From the NCBI GenBank assembly GCA_958009085.1, contig OY253673.1, positions 1,478,630-1,498,471 of the forward strand: a stretch of DNA of 19,842 nucleotides, given 5' to 3'. The DNA is from Protoeuglena noctilucae. Taxonomy: Eukaryota. The position numbers were made by a program, and so were the translations under genes. The notes beneath the pieces are model-generated. The model was not told where the DNA came from, ran no database searches, and saw only the letters and a list, made by a program, of their open reading frames with translations. Below are positions 1 through 17,850 of this stretch, piece by piece (within the stretch, counting starts at the first letter, position 1; every line of letters starts with the position of its first letter).

Positions 1-28
1 GCACCCCCGCTCGATGTCTGTTCTGCTT

Positions 29-68
29 ATATCTACATCATATCTATATCTATATCTACATCTATACA
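29..68 (+). repeat. Intronic (ATCTAY)n-like microsatellite
   Basis: atatctacatcatatctatatctatatctacatctataca, in the partial first intron (acceptor AG 110-111). Confidence 0.75.
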
Positions 69-111
69 GCTCACCGCCTCTCTCCCTCTCCTCCCCCCCC
101 CCACCCCCCAG

Positions 112-3100
112 CCTGGTCCAGGCGCACGCCATGCGCGACCACCCCGCATGCAAGGCGCCCCTGATGCCCCCCGCCCCTCCCCCCGCGGTGGGGGGAGAGC
201 CGCACTGCGTATTTCGCCCTCCTGCGGGTCATGCGGTGGCTGGCCAGCTCCGGGCTGGACCCCCAACGACCCAAGGAACGCGGACCTGCTGGAGCTGAAG
301 AAGTACAGGCGAGGGATGAGATAGATGGAGGGGTAGTACAGGCGAGGGATGGGAAGGGGGTGGTAGTGGTTACGAGGAGTTGAGAAGGAGAGGGATTTCA
401 ATGCGGCGTTGTCCGTGGGTGCAAGACAGCCGCTCTCCCTCCCCTCCCCCCCCAGGGAGCTAGAGGTGCAGCGTGGGGGTGGCGACGGCGTGGACGCCGC
501 TCTGCCCGACGCCGGGTCGCTGCGCCTGCAGCCGGCGAGGGAGGCGGCGGTGGGGAGGGGGGGCGTGTTTGCGGCCAGGCGCGCCAAGATGCTGCGGCTG
601 CGGTGGGAGGGGGAGACGAGGAGCAGCAAGAGCATGGGGTTCTGCATGCCGGTGAGGGAGTGAGGGGTTGCAGATCACAACACACAAGGTCGCCCTCCAT
701 CCACAGCTCTCTCCCTATCTTTGCTTGCACACCCACCACCACCCCCCTCCCCCATCACAGATCTCGGACGGCCAGGTGCAGGACCTGGACATCCACCGCC
801 TGCTGAAACGCAGCGGCATCCCCGAGCGCGACCTCCGGCAGCGCGTGGCGGAGGAGCTGGACCTGGCGGCGCAGGAGCGGCTGGTGCGGAGGGCCATGGA
901 CGCGCCCTCGCTCACCGCCCTGCAGGACCGCAGCCGGGCGATTGCAGAGTTCGCATACGACATTCGGCAGGCGGCGGTGGCCGGCCGCGCCAGCGAGGGC
1001 GCCCCCTCCCTGCGCGCCACCGACGACGTCGTGCGGCAGCCGCGCGTCGACCTGCTGCGGCTGGACGTGGGGGGGGTGGTCCGGGACGCCCTGCGCCCGC
1101 GCGCCAAGCTGCGCCCGGCCCGGCAGCGCGCCGTCGTGGCATCCACGGTCCCGCGCGACCTGGCGCTGGTGGTGGTGGTGCAGTCGGCCGAGCACCTGCC
1201 CATGCGCGCCGAGGCTGCCGAGGCGGTGCGCGATGCGGGGGGATACCTGGGCCCATCCGCGGACGAGCAGGCGCTGCTTGCGTGTTTCGCGGAGGTGCTG
1301 TTCGGGGACTACGCCGTGCGCACGCAGACGCAGATCGGCACCTCCGCCTCCTTCAACGAGGTGGGGGGGGGCTGCTTATATGTGTGCCGCTTAGATGTGT
1401 GCCTTGGAAAGATGTGTGCCTTAGAAATGAGATGTGTTCATTGCGGATGGAAAGGCAGTCCGCCTTCTTCCACGAGGTGGGGGTGACACTGGCTGGATGT
1501 GCGTGTGGTGGGTTTGCAGTGCCGGGGTCGCATGCGGCGAGTGGCTGTGTCTGATTGCTGTAGTTGCGAGGCTCAGCAGCAGTGGCGTCTCCCCACTCTG
1601 CCACTCTCGCCCCCCTCCATGCCCGTCGCTCATCCATAACCGTAACCCCTCCATCCCCCACCCCAGGTCCTCACGCTCCCCGTGGAGGCCCCCGACGGCC
1701 AGGAGCTGACCCCTCGCTTTTTATGGCTGTACGACGAGCCCATCGTGATCAACTTCTTTGACGAGGTGGCCGTGCAGACGGGAGGGGGGCTGCGGCCCAG
1801 GGAGGGCGCGGACCTGTCCAAGTACAAGCCCGCCATCGGGCAGGGGCAGGCGAGGGCAGTTTGCTGTACAGCGCGTTCCCTGCTCTGACTAAAGCACATT
1901 CCCTACCCCTTCCTCGCACGCACCCCCACCCTGCACCCACGCCCGTCGCACCCTCACCTGTCCCCCGCCCCCTTCGCAGACGGTGGTGACATTGGAGCGT
2001 CGCTTTTTGGGTTCTCTCCGCGTCCCCTTCTCGTCCGTCTTCAAGGCCGGCTCACTGCAGGGGTCCATGCGCATCGACGTCCCTGCTGCCAGCCTGGGGT
2101 ACACCCACAACCCGGCGGGGAGCCCGTCCGCCACCGTGTTCATCACCATGGCGAGTGGCATGGATGACCCATGGTGGCAGTCTGCGCGTAGAGCAGGGTA
2201 ACAAAGATGCAGGGATGCCCTCTGCACTGCGAGCGTGTCCGGCGACCGTGACATGCACGCCCACTGATGCGTTGCGCGTAGAGTGATAGAGACACACAGA
2301 CGCTCTCTGCATGGCGTGCATGTATCAGGCAGCTGTGACATCATACATACACCCCCACCCTCCCCCCCGCAGAGTCCCCAGGTGCCCCACCCCGACCCCG
2401 TCATTGACGAGCAGAGGGCGGGGGAGAGCCCAGAGCTGCAGGCCAGAGTGGCAGAGGCGAGAGATGCGCATGAATTCACACCCACTGCAATGGCATGCGA
2501 CGCTGTTCACCCCTGCTATCTACTCTGCAGTCGCAGCAGCACACACCCCTCGCGTTCACTCCACAGTGGCAGCAACACGTGACCACCCACCCCCCTCCCC
2601 TTCCCCCCCGCAGTGGCAGCAGGACGTCTTCCGCCGCACCCGCGGCCGCAACCGCGCCTCGTTGGTGGCCGTGGACAAGGCAGGCACGGCCGTGCTCATG
2701 CTGCGGTACGTCGCCCCGATCCCCTCCCCCCCCTCGCTAGCCGTGCGCCCCGAATCCGGCGCCGCTGCCCCGCGTCGCCTGGCATGGTTCGTCTCCCATG
2801 TGCCGTTCGTGGAGGACGACAACCTGGAGGCCGACCGCGAGGACATCTGGATGACGGCGGCCGACTTTGTGCGGCTGGGGGCGGGGGACCAGGAGGAGCA
2901 CGCCTGCCTGCTCGCGGGGTACTTCCTCAACATGGGGCAGGCGAGATGTGAATGGGGGGTAGATGCGGACGGCCAGGAGTGTGGCCCTGTCGACACGTCG
3001 CGTCTCTACCCTTCCTTCACTCCCCTTCCATCTCAACCCCTTTGCTCGCATCGCATCTCTCTCTTTCACCCTTGTCTCTCCCCTCCCTCTCATCGGATCT

Positions 3101-5061
3101 CTTTCACCCACTCATGCCCCATATCTCTCATCGACCCGCCCCCCCCCCCCCCCCCTATCGTCATATTAACATCATCCACTTATATCCCTCCCCCTCCATC
3201 TCCCACCCCAGGAGGCCTTTGTGGTGTCCGGCACCTCCACTGCCTCCAGCAGCGACTACTTCGTCCTCACCACGGGCAGGGCACACGACGAGGGGCGGTG
3301 GGCGCTGCAGCCGGGGCAGAAGACCACCCCCACGGACATCGCAGGCAGCGGCATCACGGGCGAGTGATGCGACACGGCCACGGTCGCTGCGTGCCCATGC
3401 ACTGCCCTATCCCACCGCATGCGTCGTCACTCATACGCCCACTATGGCACTATGGCCACCACTGTTCCCTCCCCTAACCACCGCATGCGGTGCCACTCAT
3501 CCCCTCTCCCGTCTTCACGGCATGCTGTATCTCACTCCTCCCCCTTCCTTCCCCCCCCCAGTCGCGTCTCTCACCCTCTGGAATGCCACCAAGGGCACAT
3601 CCGTCCCCGCCACGGACCCACAGAACGAACTCCGCGCCGTGTCGGTGGTGTTCAACGGGGGTGAGTTGCCGGGCAGATGGGGTGCATTAATGAGATGAGA
3701 CCACGCGCTTTGACGTTGCTGCATAGTACTAGCTGCTCTTATACGCTGCCGCACAGCAGCAGGAACACCGCCGTACAGCTCCCCCCCCCTCCCTCTCCCC
3801 CCAGCCAACGCCTGGGCCAACGTGCAGCCGTCCGCGCACCCCTGGGAGATCGACTGGGACCTCGACAACCCCCGCCTGTGGATGCCCCTCTTCAGCCCCG
3901 CGTTCCCACCGCGCAGCCTCGCGTCCGTGCAGGGGGAGGTGAGACGGGCGGGGAGGCAGTTTGTCATGAGTGGAACAACGATGCCCATTCATGCTGCCAT
4001 GCACCCACCGCATGCGAGTGTTGTGTCACCCACTCCCCCTCTCACGCACCGCATTGCACTCATCCTCTCTCCCCAGGTGTCGTATGAGGAGCACCGCCAC
4101 GAGTTCTTCGAGGACCTGGCGCGGAAGCTGGCCGAGGAGGTGCGGGAGGTCATCCGCGACGCACGCCTGGATCTGCTCTCCACCACCGCCCACTTCGACG
4201 CCACCCTGGACACCAAGCTCAAGGCGAGGATGGGGGGGAGGTGGCGTGGATGACATGCGTGCATGCATTGCTCTACTGCTTATCACTGCTCGCCTCTGCC
4301 TCTGATCCCGCCCATGCTGACCCAAGCACACAGCCCCTCACTTCCCCATCACCATACGCCCTCACCTGCCCCCACCCTCCATCACCTCCCCTCACCCGCC
4401 CTCACCTCCCCGCCCCCCCAGCGCCTCCTCCGCGACGCCCACGCCGACATGGAGAGAGGCTTCGCGTCCCTCCCCGCGTCGGACCCCCCCCCCGGCGTCG
4501 GCACCCTGGGTTCTTCGACCGTGGGGCGGTACCCCCGTGCAGCGGTCGAGAAGATCCAGGGCGACCACCGAGCGGTGCTGCTGCGGGAGTTCCCATCCTA
4601 CGACGTGCAGGGGGTACTGCTGCACATGCCATTCGGGGACATCGAGGATAAGCTGGCCGAGGTCATCCTCAACACCGGTGAGCGTGTTGGAGAGGGGGAG
4701 GGTGTGTATGTGGGTGTGGGGGTGGGTGAGGGTGGGGATGAACGGGGAGAGAGAGATGCGCGTGGGTGCTTGTGATGAACATGCGAGAGAGGGAGTCGAG
4801 AGTGGGGAGTCGCACCGGCTGTCTTCGTGAGGGATGCGTCGTCACTCACCCGCACCGCCCCGCTTCCCCCGTGCAGACCTGCACATGGCCCTGGGCGAGG
4901 GGGTCAAGTTCGGCGTGGACGTCCACTGCCAGCCCATGGGGTGCAGGTTCGCATTCCCCGTCTACATCTACCTCGTCCACCTCCGACGCAAGCCCGCACA
5001 CCTGCCCAGGGAACGGGGCCCTGCGCTGCCGCAGCCGCAGCCGCAGCCGCAACTCCGATAG
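112..5061 (+). CDS. CC2D2A: Coiled-coil and C2 domain-containing protein 2A (CC2D2A/MKS6), ciliary transition-zone protein; 5'-truncated by the window edge, about 900 aa encoded here
   Basis: Inferred exons: 112-308, 456-651, 761-1360, 1667-1849, 1980-2150, 2373-2456, 2614-2940, 3212-3359, 3562-3660, 3805-3938, 4077-4223, 4422-4677, 4877-5061(TAG). All 12 junctions are phase-consistent. The spliced protein shows CC2D2A-type motifs in the expected order: RW..SSGLDPNDPRNADLL (needs a 1-nt correction near 260), RRAKMLRLR, C2 domain (LVVVVQSAEHLPMR..FAEVLF..FNEVLTLP..INFFDE..ERRFLGSLRVPFSSV), CEP76-like transglutaminase-like domain (WFVSHVPF..DIWMT..GAGDQEEHACLLAGYF..LWNATKG..NAWANVQ..W.PLF), and C-terminal FGVDVHCQP..VYIYL. 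Recognised from memory of the family, no search run. Confidence 0.9.
309..455 (+). other. GC-AG spliceosomal intron (CC2D2A)
   Basis: AG|GCGAGG ... C-rich CAG; joins KKY-R-ELEV in phase 2; read-through hits TAG at 322-324. Confidence 0.75.
1380..1437 (+). repeat. Short intronic tandem repeat (atgtgtgcc core)
   Basis: atgtgtgcc occurs three times, plus a partial agatgtgt, inside CC2D2A intron 1361-1666. Confidence 0.7.
1850..1979 (+). other. GC-AG spliceosomal intron (CC2D2A)
   Basis: CAG|GCGAGG ... ttcgcag; phase 0 join to TVVTLERRFLG. Confidence 0.75.
2151..2372 (+). other. GC-AG spliceosomal intron (CC2D2A)
   Basis: ATG|GCGAGT ... ccccgcag; gives VFITM-SPQV, matching the family FIT.EP-like segment. 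Confidence 0.75.
2457..2613 (+). other. GC-AG spliceosomal intron (CC2D2A)
   Basis: GAG|GCGAGA ... cccgcag; phase 0 join VAE-WQQDV. Confidence 0.75.
2941..3211 (+). other. GC-AG spliceosomal intron (CC2D2A)
   Basis: CAG|GCGAGA ... ccccag; joins YFLNMGQ-EAFVVSG within the transglutaminase-like domain. Confidence 0.85.
3360..3561 (+). other. GC-AG spliceosomal intron (CC2D2A)
   Basis: CGG|GCGAGT ... cccccag; phase 1 join to VASLTLWN. Confidence 0.72.
4224..4421 (+). other. GC-AG spliceosomal intron (CC2D2A)
   Basis: AAG|GCGAGG ... cccccag; joins DTKLK-RLLRD. Confidence 0.8.
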
Positions 5062-5706
5062 CACGGCCGAGGCGCCGGCGCTGACTTTGGACTTTTCTCA
5101 GCTTGCCAGTGACAGATTGTGACACTCGCGACCCACGCACTTGAAACGGCACTGCATCTGGCGCCAGACACGGCCGCCATTCGCTTATCCGCCAAAGTGC
5201 GAATAAGTGGGGTCTAATGCGACTGTGGGCAATCCGCGCGGCACCGTTAAGGGCGTATCTAGCATACACTGCACCCGCGTGCGCAAAAATCGACACGAGG
5301 GCAAGAGGCATCGGGTTGTGCTTCGCGACGCACACAAGAGGCCCCCGCCGGTCGTTATAGATAGGGTCCATCCGATCGGCTTTGCAGCGGAGCACACGGC
5401 GCCAAACCTGCCCGTTGCAGGGCATGCAGAGTCCCGCGTTTGAAATTCTCGCTCTGGGTGGACGTCGCTGAATAAGCGTATCCTCACGGAGGTCGTGGAG
5501 AGGGAGGGAGAGCGAGGTGACGCGTGGCGGGTGGCTGCGGAGCGGCCTTTCCGCGTTTTGCTTGTCATCTTTGTTTCTTCCCCCCTCCCCCGTCGCTGGT
5601 CGATGTCGCCGCACCCGGCCAATGGCGCTGCTTGCTGTCGAAGTATGTGCGAGGCCAGTGCGACGACGAGCGGCCCTAGACGACCACTCCGCAGGTGCTC
5701 CCGGGG

Positions 5707-7234
5707 ATGGCCATGGTGCAGGTGTACGCCGAGCCCTTCGCGCGGCGGCAATACGCGCCGTGGGTGTCGCATGCCGTCGTCTACCGCATCCTTTCGTGGG
5801 CCCTCACACGTGAGTCGCTGACATGAAGCCACGCGCCGCTCGCTCCCGCGGGTGGGATGCGACCCGTGCCCCTCCCGCCCCCAGTGCTCGCGTCGGCGGT
5901 GATTGCGTTCGCGGCGGGCGGCCTGTGGGAGAAGTACAGCGTGGCGGTGTCCCAGCCGACCGTGGACTTCACGTATGACATGGTGGTGGTGCTGGAGGGG
6001 GACGCGTCGGCCGGGGGAGGGGAGCGGGTGTGGACGACGTCGGCGGCGATGAACGCGGCGCTGGGCCCGCGTCTGCTGGCGGCGAGCGTGCAGGTGGCGG
6101 CGGACGACGAGAACAACGACGGGAAGAAGGACGTGTTTGACATTGTGTGGAGGGGGTACGGGGCCAGGGCCGTCACGGGGGTCAAAGTCCTCACGCAGGT
6201 GAGGGGGCAGGGGCAGTGGTTGGTAGGGGCAGTGGTTGGTAGCACAGACTCACGCAGGCGAGGGGCAGTGGTAGGGACAGGGCAGGGGCAGGGGCAGGGT
6301 AGCACCGTCGTCCTACAGACGAGGGGCAAAGCCAGTGGTAGGGGCAGGAACGGGACTTATCTGCCAATGCGAGGGTGGTCTTTCACCCGCGTGCCTGACC
6401 ACATCTCACTTACCGTCGTCGCTCGCAGTACAAGTACACGTTCAACGACACGGTCAGCCTGCAGATGTACTCGCTGGCCTATGCGGAACACGCGGGTGCC
6501 GCGCCCGGCCGTGGCGCCTACATCGACGGGCAGCTGCGCCTGGTGCAGGACGTGGTGCCGGCAGCCAAGGCAGTGCGGTGAGGGGGCGCAAGGTGGGGGT
6601 TAGCATGCAGCAGCACTTATGCAGCGGCACCGCTCACACTGCCGGTCCCCTCTCCTCCCCGCAGCACCCAGTACCTCTCCAAGCCCCTCCAGGACCCCGG
6701 CAGCGGCACCGACACGCTTCAGCCCACCGTGGAGTCCAACCTCGTGCGCATCCTGGCATCCTACCACGACCGCGACGAGGCGAGCGGGGGGAGAGAGGGA
6801 CGCGGTTGTGAGTGAATGAGTTGAGTTGAGAGCACACGCACAGCTGCACTTATGTGTTTGGCTGCCCCGCAGGTGACGGTGCTGGACAGCCCCACCCGCG
6901 TGTGGCAGGTGGGGGACTCTTCGGAGTTCGTGCTGCAGATGCGCGTGAGGGTCCCCAAGGCACAGGAGTACCGGTACAAGAGGCGAGAGCTGCATTGGGA
7001 TAGCACCACCACCCACGGCCACTGCTCTGCCGCCGCGTCGACCCATGCGACCACCCCTTCCCTGCTCCCCCCAGGGACCGCCTGCAAGTGCTCCTCCTGG
7101 CCTGGGTCCAGATCCTCGCCATCTTCTACGTCCTCTGGTGGCTCGTCGGCCGCCTGTCCTCGGTGCTCTTCCACTTCCGCGTCTTTCGCACCCGCGTGGC
7201 ATCGGACCTCGACAAGAAGCTACACCACTTCTAG
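5707..7234 (+). CDS. TMEM231: Transmembrane protein 231, MKS-module ciliary transition-zone protein, 316 aa
   Basis: Inferred exons: 5707-5809, 5885-6198, 6429-6577, 6665-6779, 6873-6982, 7075-7234(TAG); 951 nt, in frame. Protein: MAMVQVYAEPFARRQYA.., N-terminal TM helix followed by GLWEK..QPTVDF, DDENNDGKKD, YIDGQLRLVQ, ILASYHDRD, and C-terminal TM ..AWVQILAIFYVLWWLV..KKLHHF. The two-TM topology, these motifs and the length fit the TMEM231 family. Alternative start ATG at 5713. Confidence 0.88.
6190..6349 (+). repeat. G-rich degenerate minisatellite in TMEM231 intron 2
   Basis: Repeated ggggcag and ggggcagtggttggtag blocks, plus re-occurrence of ctcacgcagg(t/c)gagggg. Confidence 0.75.
6780..6872 (+). 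other. GC-AG spliceosomal intron (TMEM231)
   Basis: GAG|GCGAGC ... cccgcag; joins YHDRDE-VTVL. Confidence 0.8.
6983..7074 (+). other. GC-AG spliceosomal intron (TMEM231)
   Basis: AG|GCGAGA ... ccccag; phase 2 join YRYKR-DRLQVLLLAWVQ; no GT is available in the intron. Confidence 0.85.
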
Positions 7235-7518
7235 TATAGGGGACGCTAGGATGATAGGCACGGGGGATGCGGGGTTTGCATGCGCGCACGTTCAAGCGAT
7301 CGAGTGTCACTACGTCACTAGGTCACAGCAAGGGCGATGGCCGCATGTCACAGCTCCGCCGCCCACGTCACGGGCCGCCACGGCAGCAGCTGGCCATTGG
7401 GGGCGATCATCGACAGGCGAGCGCGGAGAAGGCGGCGACGGGCACCTGCGGGGAGGGGCAAAGGGCAACGGTCGACCTGCGCAATGCGGATGACTGCTGT
7501 GTCAGGATGGCAGTGCCA

Positions 7519-10500
7519 CTATTGCCGAACGCGCATTGCATTCCCTTCCCGCTCACATGTCCGGTGAGTCCCAGCCTCCCCATCCTTCCCCGCCCCCTTC
7601 CCCGTTGCTGCCGGCGCGTTCTCCTTGTCGCCCCCCCCTCCCCGCGGGGACGCAGGCGCCGAGGCTGACGACGGGCGAGGGGGGGCGGGACGCGCATCCG
7701 AGGGGCGAGGCGGGGCGCGGGGCGCGGGGGCGACCCCGGGTGCGGCCGCGGCGGTCTGGGTCTGCCCTGCGCTGCCCGCCCCCTCGTCCCTGCCCCTCGC
7801 GGCGCCTGGCCCACCCCTGCCGGCCGCCGACCCCAGCCGCCCTGCGCCCCTCCCCGCACTCGTCGACCGCGCCGCCCCCCCAGCACCCCCGCCCCTCCCC
7901 GACCCATCCGTGCTGCGCGACCGCAGCCCCGTGGCCTTTGAGACGTCCCGCGACGCACCCAGCGCGTGCGAGCGCAGGGCACGCCCACGCCCCACGCCCG
8001 CCTCTGCCGCGTCGACCTCCCCGGAGTCCGAGGCGTCCACGCTGTGCGACCGCAGCGATCGCGCGGAGGCAGCCCTGCCGCGCGATGGCCCCGCGGGCCA
8101 TGCGGACCCCCGCAGGGACTGGGCAGGTCCCCGCCCGTCACCTGCCTCGCGTTCACCCTTGTCCCCCACCGCATCGCCAGCCCTGGCCGCCGTGAAGACA
8201 GTCACGCGCGGGGCCGCACCCCCCATCCGGCTCTCCGCCTGGTCCCCCGCCTCTGCGGAGCCAGTGCTGGTGGCCTGCGACGACTGCGCCAGGCTGGGCA
8301 GCGTGAAGACCGACCGGCGGGGGTGGGCCGAGGGATGAGGCTCGTCCTCAGCGGCTGGGGGCGCCTCCGCCCCACTGCCCCCGCTCCTGCCCCCGCTGAC
8401 CATGGACGGCACGCTCTCCGCCTCATCATGACCTGCGCCGACCGCCGGCACTTCCTGCGCGACGGGACCCGCAGAGTCCCGGGCGCCATGGGCGGTGCTG
8501 AGGACCGCTGGAGTGGCCGCGCCGCCCATGCCCGCCCCCAGGCCCGGCGTGGGAAGCGCCGTCTGCGACGCGGCTGCCGCAGCGCGTTGGGCCGGGGTGT
8601 AAGGCAGGCCCGGGCTGAGCAAACTCGCGTCCTCCTGCACGCGGGGCGAGTGGGGACGTCGTTGGCGGTGGTTGGGGGCGCATTGGTTGTTGGCCGTGGC
8701 ACGGCAAGCAAAGGTGCATCGATCGCCGCCCAGCTTCACCTGACGCGCTGCCTTTGCCGCGTGCTCTCCCGCGCCCCCTGGCATCCGGCGCCCCTCCGGT
8801 CCTGGCGATGGCGACGCGAGCTCTCCACCGCCGTGCCGCACGGTGCCCCAGTGCTTGACGGCGTTGGACACTCCCCGCCAGTCGACGCCGGGGGCCGCCT
8901 GGGCAGCGCCGGCGGGGGCCTGCGCCAGGGCGGACCGCGCCAGCACGCGCGGCATCTGACGGGTGGCTGCAACGCCGCCCCCCGGCGCCTCCACGGCCTC
9001 CAGGGAGTCAAACACGCCGGGGGTGGAAGGGGGCGAGGGGCGGGGGCTGGACGAGGCGGCGGGGGCGGCCTGGGGGGAGGACACCGGAGTCGCGGGCGAG
9101 GCAGGGGCCCTCTCGGGGCTCGCTGGCGCGGACGCAGGGGCGACCAAACCGTGGGCAGCTTCGGATGCCCCAAGGCCGGGGCTTGTGGCGGCATCGAGGG
9201 CGGTGCGCCTGGCCTTGGTCCGGCGCTCGAGTGCCTGCGGGGGAAAGCAAGCCAATTGCTGTGAGATGCAGCTGACAGCAAGACCGCGCCTCTGGTGCAA
9301 CCTGACCACCCGCCAAACGTTCACAGGTAAACAGCAAAACAAAGCTCGGGTCGCCCCTCACCCGCACCCGGGCCTGCATGCCCGCGTACGTCCTCTCCAG
9401 CACCGCGTTCCGCGCCCTCAGCGCCTCCGCCTCGGCCCGCGCCTCCTCCGGCGATGCGCAGCGGTCAACGCTCGCCGACCGCCCCCGCTCCCTCTCACGC
9501 TCCCTCTCCCTCTCCCGCCGCGTCGCTGCCACCGCTGCCGACTTGAGCCGTGCGACCTCCGCCTCCCGCAGCGTTAGCCGCTGACGCAGCGCCTGGACGT
9601 CCGCCGCCTCCGCCCGCGCCGCATCCACCGCCGCGGACGCCGAGGCCAGCTCCCGCCGCAGGCGCGAGATCTGCGGACGAGCCAGGGTTGTTGGCGTCAC
9701 CTGACGCGTTCTCGTTCTCGCGATCGCCGCCCCCCATACACCGCCCTCACGCACCTCCTTCTCCCGCGCCTGGCACTGCGCCGCCAGCACCGCCACGTCG
9801 GGGGAGTGGCTTCGCCTCCCCGCCGCCTTCTGGGCCCGCGTCAGCGCGTCACGCAGCCTCCCCGCCTCCTGCCGCGCCACGTCGAGCTGCTCCTCCAGCT
9901 CCGCCACGCGGCGCTCGGACGCGTGCCGCTGCGCGTGGGCCCCCTGCAGCCACGGCGACGGGGGACACGCATGGGCTGCGTGCTTACATCAGTTAACGCA
10001 TCGTCATCCATGCCCCTGCCCCTCCCTCACCCGCGCCTCCTCCTCCGCCCTCTCCAGTGCTGCGCGGATCTCCGGCAGGTCACGCTCCCGCTGCTCCACC
10101 AGCGCCGCGTGCGCCTGGCGCAGGGCAGCGGCCAGCTCCTCCGCTCGCGCGTGCTGCCGCCGCGCCCGGGCCCTCCACTCCTCGGCGGAACGGACCCTCT
10201 CCCCTCCCGCGTCCGGCCCCCCGCTCTCAGGGGTGTCATGCACCCCGCCCTTGTCTACAGCCAGCGCCGCTTCCAGCTCCGCCACCCGCGCCTCCCGCAA
10301 GTGCACCGCCGCCTCCAGGGCGCGGCGCCTCGCCCTCAGCTCCCGCACCTCCCCCAACGCCTGCCTGGCCTGGGCCTCCCCCTCGCGCACCTGCTCCCGG
10401 AGGCCCTGTGCCTCGGACGCCGCCGCCCGCTGCCTCGCCTCCGCCGCCTGCAGCTGTGACCGCAGCTCCTCCGCGCCGGCCACCGCCGAGGCCAGGCGCC

Positions 10501-13500
10501 CCTCTCCTTCTGCCACTTGCGACCGCAGCGCCTCCACGCACGCCTCCGCCTCCTCGGCACGCGCGCGGCAGGCGTCCTCCCCCGCCCGCGCCTCCCTCGC
10601 CCGCTGCTCCTCCTCTGCCACGCGCGCCTCCAGCAGCGACGCCCGCGACTCGCGCTCCTCTACACCCCCCCGCAGCGCCTCCACCTCGGCCGCCAAATCA
10701 ACCGCACGCGCGCTCGCGTCCCTGGCCTCGACCCGCAACGCCTCTGCCTCGGCGCGAGCGGACTTGGCCGAAGCCTCCGCTGCGTCTGCCGCCTCCGTCA
10801 GCGCCTCCGCCGCCGCCGTGGTCCTTGCGATCGATGCCCGTGCCTCCGACAGCTCCGCGGCGAGCCTGTCATGCCCTGCCCTCGCCTCCTCCAGCTCAAC
10901 GGCAAGACGCTGGCGATCCGCTCGCGCGTGCTCGAGGTCGGCAGCCAGCTTGTCGTGCCCTGCTCTGGCATCCTCCAGCGCTGCCATCGTCTCTCCCAGC
11001 TGAGCTGCCGACCGGTCGCGGTCTGCCCTCGCCTCGTCGAGCTCGGCAGCCACCCGGTCCCGACCCTCCTGCAGGACCAGCAGCTCACAGCGCAGGGCCT
11101 CCACCTCTGCCGATTGCGCGTCCCGGGCCGAGACCGCCGCATCCCGGTTCGCCATCAGAGCGGCATGCTCTGCGCTCAGAGCACGCAGCCTGGCCGTCGT
11201 CGCATCCCTCTCCTCGGCGAGCTGCCTGGCGCGCTCGTTTGCCTCGCTCGCCATCTCCCGCATCCGCTGGTCCCTCGCCAGCACCTCCTCCCGCATGCGC
11301 GCCTCCAGGCCAGCCGCAGCGTCCATCGCCGCCTGCCACTCGCCCCGCTCCTGCGCCCACCGGCTCTCCAGGGTCAAGCACATGTCCCGTGCGGCGTCCC
11401 TTTCCTCCCTGGCAAGCGCTGCGGCCTCCTCGGCGTCTGCCGCGCGACGCCTGACCTCGTCGAGCAGCGCGCAGAGGCCACGAATCGCCTCCTGCGCCGC
11501 CTCCGCGCACCCATCCACATCGCCTCCCACATCGTCGGCGTCCCCAGCCCCCTCACGCGCTGCAGCCGCGGCCACCCGCACCCGCATCAGCGCCGACCGG
11601 GCCACCTCCAAGCGGCCTTCCAGGTCCGCGATGGTGGCGTCGCGGGCGCGGAAGGCCTCCTCGATGGCACGGGCCTGGGCATCCAGAGAGGACACCGCCC
11701 CACGCAGGCGGCCGCGCTCGCGGGACAGCTCGGCGTCACGCTCGGCGATGCAGGCGCGAGCAGAGAGGACTTCTCCCTCCCTCTCGGCCAGAGCTGCGCG
11801 CGCCTGCTCCAGGCTCGCGCCCATCTCCCGCACCTCGCCCTCCCTCTCGGCCACCACCCTCTCCGCCACCCGTGCATCCTCCTCAATTCGGCTTTTCTCC
11901 TCCTCAGTAACGCCCAATGCAGCCAACGCCCTCGCCAACTCCGCCTCCCTGTCCCTCAGAAGCTCCGCCGCAGCAGTCGCCGTCTCCTGCAGCTCGGCCA
12001 CCTCCCTCTCGCGCTCTGCCAGGGACGCCAAAGCTTCCCGGAGTCGCGCTTGCACCTCGCCCAGCATCTGGTCGTCCTCTGCCACTGCAGCAGCCTCCCT
12101 CGCTTGTGCTGCAGCCGCTGCATCCCTTGCGCCATCCAGCTCTGACGCCAGCTGCGCCGACCGCGCCTCAGCAGCAGCCGCGGCCTCGCTCGCCCTCTCT
12201 AGCTCCCTCCTCGCCCCCTGCAGCTCCGACGCCAGCTGCGCCGACCGCGCCTCAGCAGCAGCCGCCGCCTCAGCTGCCGCCTCCCTCGCGCCATCCAGCT
12301 CCGACGCCAGCTCTGCCGACCGCGCCTCAGCCGCAGCCGCCGCCTCCCTCGCGCCATCCAGCTCCGACGCCAACTCTGCCGACCGCGCCTCAGCCGCAGC
12401 CGCCGCCTCCCTCGCGCCATCCAGCTCCGACGCCAACTCTGCCGACCGCGCCTCAGCCGCAGCCGCTGCCGCAGCAGCCGCCTCCCTCGCCCCCTCCAGC
12501 TCCGACGCCAGCTGCACCGACCGCGCCTCTGCTGCAGCCGCCGCCTCCCTCGCGCCATCCAGCTCCGACGCCAACTCTGCCGACCGCGCCTCAGCCGCAG
12601 CCGCTGCCGCAGCAGCCGCCTCCCTCGCCCCCTCCAGCTCCGACGCCAGCTGCACCGACCGCGCCTCTGCTGCAGCCGCCGCCTCAGCTGCCGCCTCCCT
12701 CGCGCCATCCAGCTCCGACGCCAGCTCTGCCGACCGCGCCTCAGCCGCAGCAGCTGCCGCAGTGGCGGCCTCCAGCTCCGACGCCAGCTGCATGGACCGC
12801 GCCTCAGCCGCAGCCGCCGCCTCCCTCGCCCCCTCCAGCTCCGACGCAAGCTGCACCGACCGCGCCTCAGCCGCAGCCACCGCATCCCTCGAGCCCTTCA
12901 GCTCTGACGCCAGCCCTGCCGACCGTGCCTCAGCCGCTGCCTCCCTCGCCCCCTCCAGCTCCGATGCCAGCCTTGCCAACCGCGTGTCAGCAGCAGCAGC
13001 AGCAGCAGCCTCCTTTGCGCTCTCCAGCTCTGATGCCAGATGCACCGACCGTGCCTTAGCCGCAGCCGCTGCCTCCCTCGCCCCCTCCAGCTCTGACGCC
13101 AGCCCTGCCGACCGTGCCTCAGCCGCTGCCTCCCTCGCCCCCTCCAGCTCCGACGCCAGCTGCACCGACCGCGCCTCTGCTGGAGCCGCTGCCGCAGTGG
13201 CCATTTCCAGCTCTGTCTTCGCCTTTTGCAGAGCGGTCTCTCGATCCCTTGCCTCCTCCGCGGCCTCTTCCAGCCGTCGCCGCAGCTCAGCCGCCCCTGC
13301 CTCAGCCGAGTCAATGGCAGCGCGCAGACGCTCCACCTCCCGCCCCGATGCATCCGCAGCACGCACTGCCGCCTCCACCTCTTCCACACGGGCACGCACC
13401 TCCCCCCGCAGCCGCTCCACCTCCTCCGCCAGCACGTCGGCGTCCAAGACGTCCCCACCCCCCGTCTCCGTCGCCGCATCTGCCGTGCGGGGCAGCAAAG

Positions 13501-16500
13501 CACCGCTGTCCCGGCCGTGACTCTGTGCCTGTCCGCCCAGGGCTGCCAGTCGAACAGCGGCAATGGCGTGGGCAGCGCGATCCACCGCCCACTCCAACGC
13601 CCCGGCCTCGCCGTCGCGTTGGGCCTCCAGCAAAGGGACGGGGGCTTGCAGAGGTGCCCCTGGCACATGCACCAGCCCTGCCCCTACATCGCCGTCCCCA
13701 CGGCAGCCGCGGGCGTCCAGCTCAGCCGCCAGGTCCGCGAGTTGCTGCTGCAGGGCCAGGGCGAGGCGCACGTGCTGCCTCCTCTCCTCCTCCTGGCATC
13801 TGCGAAAAAGGCAGTGCCAGGCCGTCGTCACGCGCCCCGGCCTTTCAAGGACCATTGCCACATGCTGCTTCTCCACCCCGGTCTCACCGAAGGGTCTCCA
13901 GCTGTCCCCCCACCGAGTCCAGCCGTGCCTCCATGTCCCGAGCGCAGGCCTCGGCCTCCGCTTTGGCCTCCTCGGCCGCAGACGCGCGTCCCAAGGCCGC
14001 AAGCAGGGACGCGAGGCGGTCCTCGGCGACCTCCTCCGCGGCCCGTGCACGCTGCTCCGCGTCTGCCACCGCCGCCCGCATCGCCTCGACGTCCCCCACC
14101 GCACGCGCCGCCTCCGCCTGCAGCCGTGCCACCTCTGCCAGAGCCGCTGCCTCCCGCGCCCCCCACGCCTCGGCTGCCGCGGCTGCCCGCTCCCGCGACG
14201 CCCTCGCCTGCGCCCGGCACTCCTCCGCCAGGGCGTCACGCTCACGGGCCAGCGCGGCACTCTGCTGCCGCGTGGCCTCCCACCTCTCCCGCGCGTACTC
14301 GAGCTCCTCAGCCGCGCGCCTCGCAGCCTCCTCGGCACCCCGCAGCGCCTCCCGCGCCGCGTCCCGCTCCTCCCGCAAACGCCTCGCCTCCCCATGCGCC
14401 GCGTCCCGCTCCTCACGCAGGCGCCCCGCCTCCGCCTCCGCCTCCGCTACGGCGTCCTCCTGGCCCCGCAGCTGCGCCCGCAGCCCCTCGGCGTCCTCCC
14501 CGTGCGCTGCGTGCGGCCTTGCTCCCTTGGCCTCCCGCTCCCCCGCCTCCTCCCGCGTGGACGCCGCCCACGACGCCTCCTCTGCCACCTGCCCCTCCGC
14601 CTCGTCTCCGGCTGATGCCCATGCCAACAGCTTCTCCTCCAGGAACGCGATGTACCCCCGCGCCTCCTCCAGCTCCTCCCACCCCTCCCCAGCCTGGCAT
14701 GCCCGGTCCTCGCGCCCCCCGACATCTTCTTCTGTGTCGCCCGGTCCATCCCATGACCGCTCCCCTCCCTCCGCAAGTGCGAAGGAAAGGCTCGCCTCCG
14801 CATCGCCGCCCACTTGGGCAGCGGGGGCGCGGGAGCGCGACCGCCGACGCGCTCGCAGTTGCGCCAGGGCCTGCAGGGAGCCAAGGAACACAGGTCAAGA
14901 GCACAAGTACGGGATGTGTGTGCTGCGCCATGCCAGCAAGGTGACGCCTCACGCACCTGGCTCCTCCCCGGAAGGCTCGACCCAGCAACTTCTGCGCCCG
15001 GCTCTGCAGCTGCAGTCGGCGTCGCAGCCGTCTCTCCCGCTGCATTCAGCTGCGCCTTGAGGGCGCCGATGCGCGCGGTAGCCCTGGCGAGCGCACTGCG
15101 ACTCTCCTCCAGCTCTGCCGCCAGCTTGTCGCGCTCCCCCCGCGCCGCACTGCGAGGGAACGACCACAGCTGCGCTCGCGTTGAGGCAGTCGTGCCTGCG
15201 TCCGTGCGCGGCACCCTTCCCCCTGCTCGCCTGAGAGCGCGGCCCCGCTCGTCCGTCTCGCTGCGCATCTCGACCACCGCCTCTTCCAGGGCTCTCAGCC
15301 CCTCCTCCGCCGCCCGCTGCCCGTCCTCCGCCTCCGCTGCCCGCGCCTCTGCCGACGCCAAGGCCCTCCGCAGCTGCTCCGCCAGCCTCGCCCGCAGCGC
15401 CCCCTCCCCCTCCGCCGCCGCCGCCCCTGCCCGCCGCAGCTCCGCGACCTCCTGCCGCAGGGCTGCCAGCTCGGCCTCATGCGCCGCCGTCTCCTCCTCC
15501 AGCGCCGCTGCTGAGCTGGCCGCCGCCGCCCTCTCCTCCTCACGCGCAGACAGCAAGGCCAGCTCCCCCTCCACCCGCGCCTCCTCCGCCTCCGCCCGTG
15601 CCGCGGCCGCCTCGGCCCTCGCCGCCTCGCACGCCTGCCGCCACGTCCCCGCCTCCTTCGCCCACCGCTCCGCTGCTGCCTGCGCCTCGTCCGCCTTGGC
15701 ACGCCACGCGTCGGCAGACCGCGCCTGGTGCTCCTGGAGCCGCCTCACAGACTCGGCGTGTTGGTCCATGCTCGCCTGCCCGTCCTCCCCGTCCCCGACG
15801 CACGACTCGTGCCGCCCCTCGCACGGCTCCACGGTGCTTGCCGACCTCGTCCCAGGAGCAGACCGTGCCATGCGGTCCGGCCACAGACGCACGGTGGTGT
15901 GCAGGGCGCCGTCTCGTGCGGGGGACGCGGAACCCGAGCGTGGAGGCGAGGGGCGGCGCGCGGGAGAGGACGGGCCGCTGGTGGCCCGCAGGAGGGCCCC
16001 GTGCACCTGCAGGCACGTGGGGAGGGACCAGCGCATGGGCACCCGACACCGAGGCGCCTGGCTGCACGGCCAGCGCATGTGCCGCGCCCTTGCACTCACG
16101 AGCTTGAGCGCCACCTCCTGATCGCGTGCCACGCCCTTCGCCCGCTCTGCGTCCCGCACCATGGCCTCCCGCAGTCCCCGCTCGCGCACCACCTGGGCCT
16201 CCTTGTCCGCCAGGGCCTCCCGGGCTGCCGCCAGCTCCGACCCCAGCCGCCTTGCCAGGGCCTCTGCGAGGGACGGTCAAGCGAGTCGTCGGCTGCGGCA
16301 GCGGCGGGCGGGAGGGCGCGTTTGGGCGACCGCGGGGCGCCGCCCTCGCACCCTGCTCATCGGCGTGCTTGGCCAGGACGGTGCCGTGGCCGCTCAGGGC
16401 TTGGAAACGTTCACGCAACGCCGAGAGCTCCGCCTCCAGGGACTTGCTGCGGTGGCGCTCCTCCTCGCGCGCTCGCTGGTGCTCCTCCGTCTCAGCTGCG

Positions 16501-17850
16501 AGCGCGGGTGCGGGCGCGTCAGGTTGGAGGGCCTGGCCGGGCCAGTCAGGACAGCGCCGGTTGGCAAGAGCGCCCCAATCTGCGCACCTTGCAGTCCCTC
16601 CATGTCGGCGATGAGGGCATGCAGCTCGCGCTCCATGTCGTCGATGCGCTCCCGGTGCTGGCGCTCCGCCGCAGCCGCCGCTTCTCGCGACAGCCGGACC
16701 TGCGCCGACAAGGGCCAGGTCATGTGCAGAGAAGGAGATCGGTGGCCCCGGCCTTGCCCCGTCCATGTCTACCCCCACCTCCTCGTCCCGGGCTCCCAGC
16801 TCCGCCTGGGCCACCAGCGCCTGCGCACGTGCATCCTCCGCCGCTCGAGCTGCCGCGGCGGCGTCTGCCCGCGCCTCGGCCAGCGTCTCCTCGAGCTCCG
16901 CGCACCGCCCTGCCAGGCTCGATTCGGATGCTGTCGCGGCGTCCCTCGCACGCAACGCCTGCGACGCACGCCCGGGCCACCAGCCGCTCTTGCCACGCCG
17001 AGCCCAGCACTGCACCGCCTTCGCTTAAACGACACTTGCATCTCTCACCTCATTCAGTCGCTCGCGCAGCGCGTCTGCCCCTGCCCGGGCCGCCGCCGCC
17101 TCCCCCTCCCGCTCTGCCGCGCGCGACTCGGCTGCCCGGCACGCCTGGGCCAGACGCGATGCCTCCTGCTTGGCCTCGCCCAGCGCAGCCCGGTCCTCGG
17201 CCGCGCGCTCTCGCAGTTCCGCCAGCTGAGACTCGGCAGCATCCTGGCGCGCGCGGGCCTCGGCCAGGGCGGACCGGGCCTCGTCCCGCTGCGGGTGGGG
17301 AGCAGCTCGTGGGCCGCGCTCTCGGCAGGGAAGCATGACGCGTACGACGGCACTGATTCGCTGCGGGGCGTGCGCTGCGGGAGGCCACGATGTGCGGGGG
17401 CGTTGTCCAGCCCACGCACCTCGGCCCGGATGGCACCCACCACCCGCGCGTAGTCCCGCTGCTGCTCGTCCCGGTCCTCCCGCTCCTTGACCAGGAGCGC
17501 GCGGAGGTCCCCTGACGCCGCGGTCTCCGCGCGAAGGCGCAACGACAGCTGCTCCACCTCATCAACCTGCGCCGGGGCCGCGGGCGCCGCGTTCGGGCCG
17601 TGCGACAGAGAGGCAGGACGCCGAGCGTCGCGGTCGGCGCCAAACCCGGCGAGCCACGGCGCCGAGATTTGAAAAGACAGCCGTGAAGCGCGGGCAGGGC
17701 CGCCCAGCCCGCGCGGTCTCGTTCCATCCTGCTTCACAGCCCCCGCAGGCATCGGTGGAAGCATCACGCACTCACTTTCTTCTGAAGGAGACGCTTCGCC
17801 CGGGCGTACCTCTCCGCGAGGTCGCCGGGCTCTCCAGACGAGACGTTCAT
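7519..17850 (-). CDS. Giant Ala/Glu/Arg-rich coiled-coil protein (about 2,960 aa) with internal 21-aa repeats and a disordered Ser/Pro/Gly/Ala-rich C-terminal tail; function unknown
   Basis: Inferred exons (minus strand): 17850-17776, 17566-17420, 17288-17049, 16958-16779, 16699-16588, 16495-16352, 16263-16100, 16006-15231, 15149-14957, 14870-13888, 13799-10031, 9943-9755, 9670-9368, 9234-8740, 8634-7519. Total 8886 nt, one continuous frame (MNVSSGEPGDLAERYARAKRLLQKK/VDEVEQLSLRL...). Fourteen introns of 79-209 nt (13 GT-AG, 1 GC-AG) join heptad-patterned helical segments. In-frame introns (e.g. 16099-16007, 15230-15150, 9754-9671, 8739-8635) are less certain, and the donor at 9367 has an in-frame alternative at 9361. 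Confidence 0.8.
12107..13177 (-). repeat. Coding minisatellite: 16 units, consensus EARSA/V-E/Q-LASEL-D/E-GAREAAAAA (63-bp core)
   Basis: Units read from the 10004..14416 ORF are 19-28 aa long (mostly 21 or 25) and vary mainly in poly-Ala length. Includes an exact 138-bp tandem duplication (copies starting 12403 and 12541). Confidence 0.95.
15150..15230 (-). other. Probable GC-AG intron (coiled-coil gene)
   Basis: CAG|GCGAGC ... ttccctcgcag; 81 nt, in frame; removal restores an uninterrupted helical pattern. Confidence 0.6.

What the first reader, a model, noticed from the sequence alone, without database searches (positions are those of the whole stretch)
309..7074. GC-AG introns make up about half of all introns in two conserved genes, always with a GCGAG donor
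Seen: 9 of the 17 complete introns in CC2D2A and TMEM231 are best modelled with GC donors (309, 1850, 2151, 2457, 2941, 3360, 4224, 6780, 6983), all reading GCGAG. The two lacking A at -2 (ATG|GCGAGT, CGG|GCGAGT) are the only ones with T at +6, consistent with compensatory U1 pairing. Established: GC-AG introns are typically around 1% of introns and favour AG|GCAAGT, although a few lineages (some haptophytes, dinoflagellates) are enriched. Inference: this genome has a spliceosome that treats GC and GT as near-equivalent donors, or has a variant U1 snRNA/U1-C/U6.
Basis: partly seen in the sequence, partly recalled or inferred. Interest (0 to 1): 0.8.

Follow-up and report, generated by a model that had tools for sequence, protein, structure and literature searches.

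The report
Real GC-AG introns in algal genes
About half of the introns in two cilium genes of a GC-rich marine alga really do start with GC instead of GT, a lineage-level oddity already described in a few other GC-rich marine algae, so it is genuine but not a new kind of thing.

Summary
The window carries a CC2D2A-like gene (partial, 12 complete introns) and a TMEM231 gene (5 introns). Nine of the 17 donors read GCGAG and eight read GTGAG or GTGGG.

- **RNA:** two 100%-identical metatranscriptome contigs join the exons across 1850, 2151, 2457 and 2941. GC..AG is the only cut ending in AG. Their lengths also fit 3360 and 4224.
- **Homology:** an intron-poor relative and 26 TMEM231 homologues support 309, 6780 and 6983.
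- **Consensus:** GCGAG is just the C form of a local GYGAG consensus.
- **Organism:** it is unnamed. TMEM231 phylogeny and named hits point to a green alga, not a haptophyte.
- **Known parallels:** such enrichment is published for Emiliania huxleyi (about 55-65%), Micromonas pusilla (about 26%) and Aureococcus (14-40%). The last two have a canonical U1 5' end (PMC3033335).
the variant-U1 idea could not be tested, because no genome is held. The neighbouring gene has only 1 GC among 9 donors. A relative with 69% G+C has GT at the one orthologous intron that is GC in the window.

Verdict: real, and probably a new member of a known kind. Interest is modest.

The parts
111..5062 (+). CC2D2A-like gene, 3' part (13 exons modelled, 12 complete introns, stop at 5060-5062)
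   Evidence: One open frame after splicing. Pfam CEP76-peptidase-like on exon 2614-2940. 58% identity to relative P0001, which carries CC2D2AN-C2. RNA contigs cover about 600-5151. The start of exon 111-308 is not validated, and the window differs from the RNA contigs by five one-letter indels there.
5707..7236 (+). TMEM231 gene, complete (6 exons, 317 codons plus stop)
   Evidence: Open frame from ATG to stop. Pfam TM231 on three exons. End-to-end alignment with homologues of 310-314 aa at 35-41% identity.
309..455 (+). GC-AG intron (cag|GCGAGG), 147 nt
   Evidence: Frame. Junction gapless against the relative's uninterrupted ORF. No RNA row seen. A tandem copy of the donor lies at 335-354.
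1850..1979 (+). GC-AG intron (cag|GCGAGG), 130 nt
   Evidence: RNA joint in X1 and X2; only the GC..AG offset ends in AG. Gapless against P0001.
2151..2372 (+). GC-AG intron (atg|GCGAGT), 222 nt
   Evidence: RNA joint in X1 and X2. Gapless against P0001.
2457..2613 (+). GC-AG intron (gag|GCGAGA), 157 nt
   Evidence: RNA joint in X1 and X2. Gapless against P0001. Copies of the acceptor lie inside the intron.
2941..3211 (+). GC-AG intron (cag|GCGAGA), 271 nt
   Evidence: RNA joint in X1 and X2. Gapless against P0001.
3360..3561 (+). GC-AG intron (cgg|GCGAGT), 202 nt
   Evidence: Frame. RNA contig lengths fit the model, but the joint row was not shown. The relative has a 5-residue indel just upstream, so homology is not decisive.
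4224..4421 (+). GC-AG intron (aag|GCGAGG), 198 nt; the orthologous intron in the relative starts GT
   Evidence: Frame, with no in-frame GT alternative. RNA contig lengths fit. The relative L003 has aag|GTAAGC...cag|cgc at the same codon.
6780..6872 (+). GC-AG intron (gag|GCGAGC), 93 nt
   Evidence: Frame. No gap at the junction in the TMEM231 alignment. No RNA row seen.
6983..7074 (+). GC-AG intron (gag|GCGAGA), 92 nt
   Evidence: Frame. No gap at the junction in the TMEM231 alignment. No RNA row seen.
652..760 (+). GT-AG intron (ccg|GTGAGG)
   Evidence: RNA joint.
1361..1666 (+). GT-AG intron (gag|GTGGGG)
   Evidence: RNA joint. A donor copy lies at 1459-1483.
3661..3804 (+). GT-AG intron (ggg|GTGAGT)
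   Evidence: Frame, and gapless against P0001.
3939..4076 (+). GT-AG intron (gag|GTGAGA)
   Evidence: Frame, and gapless against P0001.
4678..4876 (+). GT-AG intron (ccg|GTGAGC); the orthologous intron in the relative is also GT
   Evidence: Frame. RNA pieces end at 4676 and start at 4876. L003 has cgg|GTAAGG at the same place.
5810..5884 (+). GT-AG intron (cac|GTGAGT)
   Evidence: Frame and TMEM231 alignment.
6199..6428 (+). GT-AG intron (cag|GTGAGG); holds a copy of its own donor that reads GC
   Evidence: Frame and TMEM231 alignment. Repeat 6190-6206 / 6249-6265 differs only at +2.
6578..6664 (+). GT-AG intron (gcg|GTGAGG)
   Evidence: Frame and TMEM231 alignment.
15150..15230 (-). Candidate tenth GC-AG intron (cag|GCGAGC), 81 nt, in the neighbouring coiled-coil gene
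   Evidence: Modelled only. It is in frame and free of stops, so it could also be coding. No RNA or homology support.

Best explanation
These are ordinary U2-type spliceosomal introns of a GC-rich marine alga, most likely a green alga. In these two genes its 5' splice-site consensus is (A)G|G-Y-G-A-G, so intron position +2 can be C or T with about equal frequency.

Shown here:
- The mRNA is joined exactly at GC...AG for four introns, and its length is consistent with two more.
- The spliced proteins are colinear with homologues at the other three.
- One GC intron has a GT orthologue in a relative.

Inferred:
- A normal U1 snRNA pairs with the donor and tolerates the single C-A mismatch at +2. 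The rest of the site is strong: G at -1, +1, +3 and +5, A at +4, and either AG at -2/-1 or T at +6.
- GC-biased mutation lets T-to-C changes at +2 accumulate, as proposed for Emiliania huxleyi, Micromonas pusilla and Aureococcus.
- The tolerance is specific to a lineage or to an intron class, not a simple function of G+C content.
For: - Nine GCGAG donors, open frames, and C-rich tracts before CAG at all nine.
- RNA joints at 1850, 2151, 2457 and 2941 in two runs. GC..AG is the only offset ending in AG.
- Contig lengths of 529 and 786 unlisted letters equal the model's prediction across 3360 and 4224.
- Gapless junctions against P0001 at 309, 1850, 2151, 2457 and 2941, and against TMEM231 homologues at 6780 and 6983.
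- GT donors of the same genes read GTGAG in 7 of 8 cases, giving the GYGAG consensus.
- AG at -2/-1 occurs in 7 of 9 GC donors against 3 of 8 GT donors. T at +6 occurs only where the exon side is weak (0 of 10 against 4 of 7). That is the pattern expected for pairing to a canonical U1 at its positions 10 and 3. The pairing scheme is recalled, not taken from a call.
- A tandem copy of the 6199 donor differs only by T to C at +2.
- Literature precedent, passages read: E. huxleyi 56-65% GC donors (PMC4028052; about 55% in PMC7779022); M. pusilla 22-26% against 1.5-2.7% in M. commoda (PMC3033335; PMC4815162); Aureococcus 39.6% or 14-17% (PMC3033335; bioRxiv 10.1101/2024.10.30.620910); canonical U1 5' end in M. 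pusilla, RCC299 and Aureococcus (PMC3033335).
Against: - U1, U6 and U1-C of this organism were not seen. No genome is held and there is no snRNA hit in the window or in the relative's contigs.
- Three of the nine GC donors (309, 6780, 6983) rest on frame and homology only.
- The neighbouring coiled-coil gene has 1 GC among 9 modelled donors (one-sided Fisher 0.045). The trait is therefore uneven, and the window cannot give a genome-wide rate.
- The relative's contigs are as GC-rich (0.68-0.71), yet its two CC2D2A introns start GTAAG. Mutation bias alone does not explain the GC donors.
- The -2/+6 pattern is post hoc, rests on 17 sites, and weakens when the GTGCGT donors of the neighbouring gene are added.
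Confidence: 0.8

Rival explanations
1. The GC donors mark a particular class of lineage-specific introns that were recently gained, possibly from transposons or introner-like elements. This would parallel Micromonas pusilla, where most GC donors sit in introner elements. On this view the GC share reflects how and when introns arose, not a general property of the spliceosome.
For: - The relative's CC2D2A is one uninterrupted frame across all 10 window introns from 309 to 3939, 6 of them GC. It shares only the last two.
- The introns of the two ciliary genes are longer (mean 165 nt) and end in long C-rich tracts. The neighbouring gene's 8 modelled introns are 79-131 nt, mostly GTGCG-type, with 1 GC among its 9 donors.
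- Four introns carry tandem copies of their own junction, so they are structurally dynamic.
- In M. pusilla, 43.5% of introns containing introner elements have GC donors against 9.7% of regular introns (PMC4815162).
Against: - The 17 introns do not form a sequence family. Only six short matches of 13-21 nt were found, mostly in C-rich tails.
- All GC donors read GCGAG, not the GYGCGT of M. pusilla IE-A1/A2 (PMC3879977).
- Intron loss in the compact relative explains the absences equally well, and no outgroup gene structure was available.
- The one shared intron that is GC here shows that GC also occurs in an old intron.
Confidence: 0.3
2. The organism has an altered splicing machinery, such as a U1 snRNA changed opposite +2 (and perhaps +3), or a changed U6, U1-C or Prp8. 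This would make GC a fully matched donor.
For: - G is invariant at +3 (17 of 17) and C is frequent at +2. Both would be matched by a U1 with changes at positions 6 and 7; the pairing scheme is recalled.
- Iwata and Gotoh leave base modification or U1 snRNP proteins open for M. pusilla and Aureococcus (PMC3033335).
Against: - Not testable here.
- In the other GC-AG-rich algae examined, the U1 5' 11 nucleotides are canonical (PMC3033335).
- GT donors remain about half in these genes and dominate in the neighbouring gene.
- A GTGAG consensus with canonical U1 is common in GC-rich green algae (recalled, not tested).
Confidence: 0.08
3. The GC donors are artefacts: mis-modelled junctions with nearby GT donors, or base errors in the assembly.
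For: - The window does differ from the RNA contigs by five one-letter indels at 145-260, so the assembly or the strain is not flawless.
- GCGAG is frequent by chance in this composition: 24 sites in 7.3 kb.
Against: - RNA joints exclude GT..AG at four sites.
- No in-frame GTGAG alternative exists near any site.
- Nine independent T-to-C errors, all at +2, are implausible.
- DNA run contigs hold 0.97-0.98 of the sampled words, though they may come from the source sample.
Confidence: 0.02

Closest known systems
GC-donor-rich splicing of Emiliania (Gephyrocapsa) huxleyi (Feldmesser et al. 2014, PMC4028052; PhycoCosm paper PMC7779022)
   Same: About half or more of the introns use GC-AG in a genome of about 65% G+C. 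The acceptor stays AG. Gene predictors that insist on GT mis-model such genes, as the public models P0001 and P0002 do here.
   Different: The window's genes group with green algae, not haptophytes. I could not see the paper's donor logos (figures are not held), so I cannot say whether GYGAG is shared.
GC splice donors of Micromonas pusilla CCMP1545 and their link to introner elements (van Baren 2016, PMC4815162; Verhelst 2013, PMC3879977; Iwata and Gotoh 2011, PMC3033335)
   Same: A GC-rich marine green alga with 22-26% GC donors. A sister species of similar G+C has 1.5-2.7%, which parallels the window and its relative. GC donors are concentrated in one intron class. The U1 5' end is canonical. 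Some donors in the window are of the Micromonas type (GTGCGT twice, GTGAGAC twice).
   Different: All GC donors here read GCGAG, not GYGCGT. The introns are not a repeat family. The local GC share is higher (9 of 17). The relative's PSME4 found no Micromonas protein among its named hits, which is weak evidence.
GC-AG introns of Aureococcus anophagefferens and Pelagomonas (PMC3033335; bioRxiv 10.1101/2024.10.30.620910)
   Same: A high share of GC-AG introns (14-40%) in a genome of about 69% G+C, with a canonical U1 5' end.
   Different: These are stramenopiles. No stramenopile appears among the 7 taxon-bearing names of the 26 hits looked up.
Ordinary U2-type GC-AG introns of animals and plants (about 1%)
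   Same: Same dinucleotides and presumably the same spliceosome. The other donor positions are stronger, to make up for the +2 mismatch: AG at -2/-1 in 7 of 9 GC donors against 3 of 8 GT donors.
   Different: The frequency is about fifty-fold higher locally. The consensus is GCGAG rather than GCAAG, following the local GTGAG consensus.

Membership tests
U2-type GC-AG spliceosomal intron | GC at intron positions +1/+2 and AG at the 3' end | tested here: met
   Nine of nine. For four of them it is the only cut offset compatible with the RNA that ends in AG.
U2-type GC-AG spliceosomal intron | Precisely removed from mature mRNA | tested here: met
   Direct joints in two RNA runs for 1850, 2151, 2457 and 2941. 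Contig length fits 3360 and 4224. Donors 309, 6780 and 6983 were not seen in the listed rows and rest on homology only.
U2-type GC-AG spliceosomal intron | Remaining donor positions fit the U1-complementary consensus (recalled: CAG|GURAGU) | tested here: met
   G at -1, +1, +3 and +5 and A at +4 in 9 of 9. A at -2 in 7 of 9. T at +6 in the other two.
U2-type GC-AG spliceosomal intron | Not U12-type (no ATCC-type donor; motif recalled) | tested here: met
   All donors read GCGAG, and none reads ATCC after the first two bases.
U2-type GC-AG spliceosomal intron | Pyrimidine tract and branch site upstream of the acceptor | tested here: inconclusive
   C-rich tracts precede CAG in 9 of 9. CTGAC- or CTCAC-like motifs are seen by eye, but no branch point was mapped.
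Lineage-wide GC-donor enrichment (E. huxleyi / M. pusilla / Aureococcus type) | GC donors make up tens of percent of all introns genome-wide | not testable with these tools
   No genome is held. In the window, 10 of 26 modelled donors are GC: 9 of 17 in two genes and 1 of 9 in the third.
Lineage-wide GC-donor enrichment (E. huxleyi / M. pusilla / Aureococcus type) | High genomic G+C | tested here: met
   The window is 0.64-0.76 G+C per kb. This is the window only, not the genome.
Lineage-wide GC-donor enrichment (E. huxleyi / M. pusilla / Aureococcus type) | Canonical U1 5' end despite the GC donors | not testable with these tools
   No U1 in the window or in L001-L004, and no genome.
Micromonas pusilla introner elements (IE-A / D-IE) | Introns are copies of a repeated family with shared motifs | tested here: not met
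   All-against-all blastn of the 17 introns gave six short matches of 13-21 nt. This covers the window only; the published IE consensus was not available to compare.
Micromonas pusilla introner elements (IE-A / D-IE) | Donor AG|GYGCGT or AG|GTGAGAC (PMC3879977) | tested here: not met
   None of the 9 GC donors fits: all read GCGAG. Two GT donors read GTGAGAC (3939, and 13887 on the minus strand).

The most novel reading that the evidence does not exclude
This is a second green-algal lineage, independent of Micromonas pusilla and with a different donor consensus (GYGAG rather than GYGCGT), in which GC donors reach about half of the introns in some genes. They are concentrated in longer, C-rich, lineage-specific introns that an equally GC-rich relative lacks. 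That would mean either a recent wave of intron gain carrying a degenerate +2, or a relaxation of +2 recognition that evolved after the two lineages split.
Probability: 0.3. Interest if true: 0.5.

Novelty: new member of a known kind. Interest (0 to 1): 0.3.

Why it matters
- **Annotation:** gene finders that insist on GT donors will break genes in this organism. The public protein models for the relative's CC2D2A (P0001) and for this TMEM231 (P0002) both read through introns.
- **Biology:** another GC-rich alga with abundant GC donors sits beside a relative of equal G+C that has GT at the one orthologous intron that is GC in the window. This pair would be useful for asking why +2 recognition is relaxed in some lineages and not in their neighbours. 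Iwata and Gotoh called that question 'an enigma' in 2011 (PMC3033335). The phenomenon itself is not new.

Tried and rejected
- **Own genome:** the search for U1 (RF00003) failed because no genome is held.
- **Rfam:** no family found in the window or in L001-L004.
- **First metagenome scan:** with exon 761-1360 as query, no relative was found. The second scan, with P0001, gave L001-L004.
- **Protein Atlas:** no usable hit for exon 761-1360.
- **Earlier findings of this scan:** nothing for this genome or its look-alikes, and the word hits were unrelated single GC-AG introns.
- **Haptophyte (E. huxleyi) origin:** considered first because of the published 55-65% GC donors, then set aside. Of the 26 TMEM231 hits looked up, 7 carry a taxon name; 6 of these are green plants or algae and one is a toad. 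The relative's PSME4 hits Pedinophyceae and Nannochloris. A quick tree puts the window's TMEM231 inside the green clade. That tree is the quick search, since the careful one did not finish. It used 36 of the 55 hits (those of 250-400 aa) plus the model.
- **Micromonas pusilla origin:** considered and left open but unlikely, because the donor consensus differs and no Micromonas name appears among the hits.
- **Introner family among the introns:** not found. A shared GCATGCG...CACTCA motif turned out to be one tandem duplication inside intron 3360.
- **TMEM231 next to CC2D2A in the relative:** no hit for TMEM231 in L001-L004.
- **RNA cover without a listed joint** (bins over TMEM231; the contig over 145-559): not used as evidence.
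- **X4 contig spanning 368-879 unspliced:** this could be intron retention or DNA in the library, so it was not used.
- **Literature:** searches for about 50% GC donors in a green alga other than M. pusilla, or for U1 in haptophytes, found none in the held library. No supplements were read. Figures are not held, so donor logos were not seen.

Full report
**What is in the window.** Positions 1-7300 are 64-68% G+C and the rest reaches 76%. One is a CC2D2A-like gene, 111..5062, cut off at its 5' end, with 12 complete introns. The other is a complete TMEM231 gene, 5707..7236, with 5 introns (after correcting four off-by-one boundaries of my own). Pfam finds TM231 on three TMEM231 exons. It finds the CEP76-peptidase-like domain on exon 2614-2940. 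The one long relative found, P0001, carries that domain plus CC2D2AN-C2.

**The donors.** Nine of the 17 donors read GCGAG at exactly the coordinates given. The other eight read GTGAG (7) or GTGGG (1). GCGAG is therefore the C form of a local GYGAG consensus, not a signature peculiar to GC introns.

**RNA evidence.** Four RNA runs of one marine metatranscriptome study hold 0.21-0.40 of the sampled words of 1-7300.
- Two contigs of 2411 and 2476 letters, from two runs, match the window without a mismatch in the listed pieces.
- They skip 109, 306, 130, 222, 157 and 271 letters at introns 652, 1361, 1850, 2151, 2457 and 2941.
- Each joint can be cut at 2 to 5 equivalent offsets. For the four GC introns, GC..AG is the only offset ending in AG, and none gives GT..AG.
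- The joints for 3360 and 4224 were not among the 15 rows printed (32 hidden). The unlisted stretches of the two contigs are 529 and 786 letters, exactly the sum of the modelled exons. This constrains the total, not each boundary.
- I saw no RNA row for 309, 6780 or 6983.

**Homology evidence.** P0001 is 58% identical over 739 residues. In metagenome locus L003 it is encoded by one uninterrupted frame across the positions of ten window introns, 309 to 3939, so it serves as a natural intron-free reference.
- The spliced model aligns to it with no gap at junctions 309, 1850, 2151, 2457 and 2941, nor at the GT junctions 652, 1361, 3661 and 3939.
- At 3360 a 5-residue indel lies just upstream of the junction.
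- The TMEM231 model aligns end to end with full-length homologues of 310-314 aa at 35-41% identity, with no gap at junctions 6780 and 6983 (26 homologues aligned, 14 printed).
- No in-frame GT near any GC donor has the GTGAG consensus.

Four donors are shown by RNA, two by RNA length plus frame, and three by frame plus homology.

**Chance.** GCGAG alone proves little. It occurs 24 times on the plus strand of 1-7300, of which 9 are donors and 5 lie in exons. The weight lies in the junction evidence. Nine or more GC donors among 17 has a probability of about 2e-14 at a 1% background rate. It is about 0.005-0.015 at the M. pusilla rate and about 0.66-0.80 at the E. huxleyi rate.

**The -2/+6 remark.** It is correct as stated. 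Extended to all 17 donors, T at +6 occurs in 0 of 10 sites with AG at -2/-1 and in 4 of 7 without (p = 0.015). This is the trade-off between exon-side and intron-side pairing expected with a canonical U1; the pairing scheme is recalled, not from a call. The test is post hoc and small. It also weakens when the neighbouring gene is added, where GTGCGT donors follow AG.

**Which organism.** It is not named and no genome is held. I first suspected Emiliania huxleyi, but the evidence points to a green alga.
- I looked up 26 TMEM231 hits; 7 carry a taxon name. Six of these are green plants or algae (Pedinophyceae sp. YPF-701, Mesostigma, Sanguina, Myrmecia, Bryopsis, Tetraselmis) and one is a toad.
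- The relative's PSME4 finds Pedinophyceae and Nannochloris.
- A quick maximum-likelihood tree puts the window's TMEM231 inside the clade holding all named green algae (SH-aLRT 100), next to an unnamed protein and then Pedinophyceae (95). The careful search did not finish. The tree used 36 of the 55 hits plus the model.
- Some introns of the neighbouring gene have the GTGCGT donor and CTGAC-like motifs described for Mamiellophyceae (PMC3879977). The GC donors here, however, are GCGAG, not the GYGCGT of Micromonas pusilla.

I leave the taxon as 'GC-rich marine green alga, species unknown', at roughly 75%.

**What the relative adds.** Its contigs are equally GC-rich (0.68-0.71), compact and intron-poor. 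Its CC2D2A has only two introns in the shared region, both orthologous to the window's last two.
- At the window's aag|GCGAGG (4224) the relative has aag|GTAAGC.
- At ccg|GTGAGC (4678) it has cgg|GTAAGG.

So one orthologous intron differs GT against GC, and G+C content alone does not dictate GC donors. Iwata and Gotoh made the same point for M. pusilla against RCC299 (PMC3033335). Six of the seven GC introns of CC2D2A lie at positions the relative lacks. Without an outgroup I cannot tell gain from loss.

**Heterogeneity within the window.** On the minus strand, a long coiled-coil gene runs from about 17575 to 9300. I modelled eight of its introns so that two long stretches stay open.
- The introns are 79-131 nt.
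- Seven donors are GT (GTGCGT twice, GTGCGC, GTGCGA, GTGAGAG, GTGAGAC, GTGGGGG) and one is GCGAGC.
- The GCGAGC candidate (15230-15150) is in frame and free of stops, so it is the least certain.
- A ninth donor (GTGAGT at 16099) has no settled acceptor.

One GC among 9 donors against 9 of 17 gives a one-sided Fisher p of 0.045. The window total is 10 of 26. These minus-strand models have no RNA or homology support.

**Mechanism.** The best-supported reading is ordinary U2-type splicing with a degenerate +2.
- The donors keep G at -1, +1, +3 and +5 and A at +4 throughout.
- GC donors have AG at -2/-1 more often than GT donors do (7 of 9 against 3 of 8).
- A tandem copy of the 6199 donor inside its own intron differs from the used copy only by T to C at +2.

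What is shown is splicing at GC, and a GT orthologue. What is inferred is that a canonical U1 tolerates the mismatch and that GC-biased mutation feeds T-to-C changes.

The variant-snRNA rival could not be tested. For M. pusilla, RCC299 and Aureococcus the putative U1 5' 11 nucleotides are canonical (PMC3033335, passage read). I give that rival about 0.08.

This is as in M. pusilla, where 43.5% of introns containing introner elements have GC donors against 9.7% of regular introns (PMC4815162). The relative's missing introns and the contrast with the neighbouring gene favour it. The lack of any repeat family among the 17 introns counts against it.

**Comparison with what is known.** Abundant GC donors are in print for:
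- E. huxleyi: 56% of 241 curated junctions, 61% of Cufflinks junctions, 65% of 270 inspected (PMC4028052); about 55% (PMC7779022).
- M. pusilla CCMP1545: 22.2% (PMC3033335) and 25.6% (PMC4815162).
- Aureococcus: 39.6%, or 14-17% (PMC3033335; bioRxiv 10.1101/2024.10.30.620910).
- Some dinoflagellates, according to a review (PMC11282704).

For every paper I saw only the passages returned by term searches. I read no supplements and could see no figures. My searches of the held library found no report of about 50% GC donors in a green alga other than M. pusilla's 26%. Van Baren et al. wrote in 2016 that only E. huxleyi exceeded CCMP1545.

**Verdict.** The phenomenon is a known kind, the variant-U1 idea has already failed in the closest analogues, and the genome-wide rate is unknown and looks uneven. 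I rate it a new member of a known kind, with interest 0.3.

Noticed in passing
window 140-265 (exon 111-308 of the CC2D2A-like gene): RNA contigs of two runs leave out one letter at 145, 155, 158, 190 and 260, all in G or C runs. With those omissions the exon reads in one frame colinear with the relative. As written in the window it needs three frames. This is either homopolymer errors in the assembly or a frameshifted allele. The DNA run agrees with the window at 190, but it may be the source sample.
   Followed up: partly
window 302-354, 1343-1483, 2510-2627, 6190-6265: Four introns contain tandem copies of their own splice junction, including exon letters. There are donor copies at 335-354 (GC), 1459-1483 (GT) and 6249-6265 (GC, while the used copy is GT), and acceptor copies at 2510-2580. 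RNA shows that the exon-proximal donor (1361) and the last acceptor (2613) are the ones used.
   Followed up: partly
window about 9300-17575, minus strand: A large coiled-coil gene with an internal tandem-repeat region (about 12100-13300). Its modelled introns are shorter (79-131 nt), mostly with GTGCG-type donors and CTGAC/TTGAC-like motifs. They look like a different intron population from the long C-rich GYGAG introns next door.
   Followed up: partly
L003 11306-14085 (also L001, L002, L004): The relative's CC2D2A lacks all ten window introns from 309 to 3939 and keeps only the last two, both starting GTAAG. Its contigs are compact, 68-71% G+C, and carry Npa1, a peroxiredoxin-like gene, Gpi16 and PSME4.
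   Followed up: partly
P0001 residues about 1150-1320; P0002 residues about 112-245: Public protein predictions read through introns. P0001 translates the relative's two introns and the exon between them out of frame. P0002 reads from TMEM231 exon 2 into intron 6199-6428.
   Followed up: yes
window 368-879: One contig of RNA run X4 is colinear with the genome across intron 652-760 and part of intron 309-455. This could be intron retention or DNA in the library.
   Followed up: no
window 1-71 and 19671-19842: Simple tandem repeats lie at both ends of the window. The one at the 3' end was dense enough for read laying to refuse the full stretch.
   Followed up: no
window 3412-3500: A 23-nt segment (CCACCGCATGCG..CACTCAT) is duplicated 66 nt apart inside intron 3360-3561. 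Similar CACTCA(Y) motifs lie about 20-30 nt before the acceptors of introns 3939 and 4678, and may be branch sites.
   Followed up: partly
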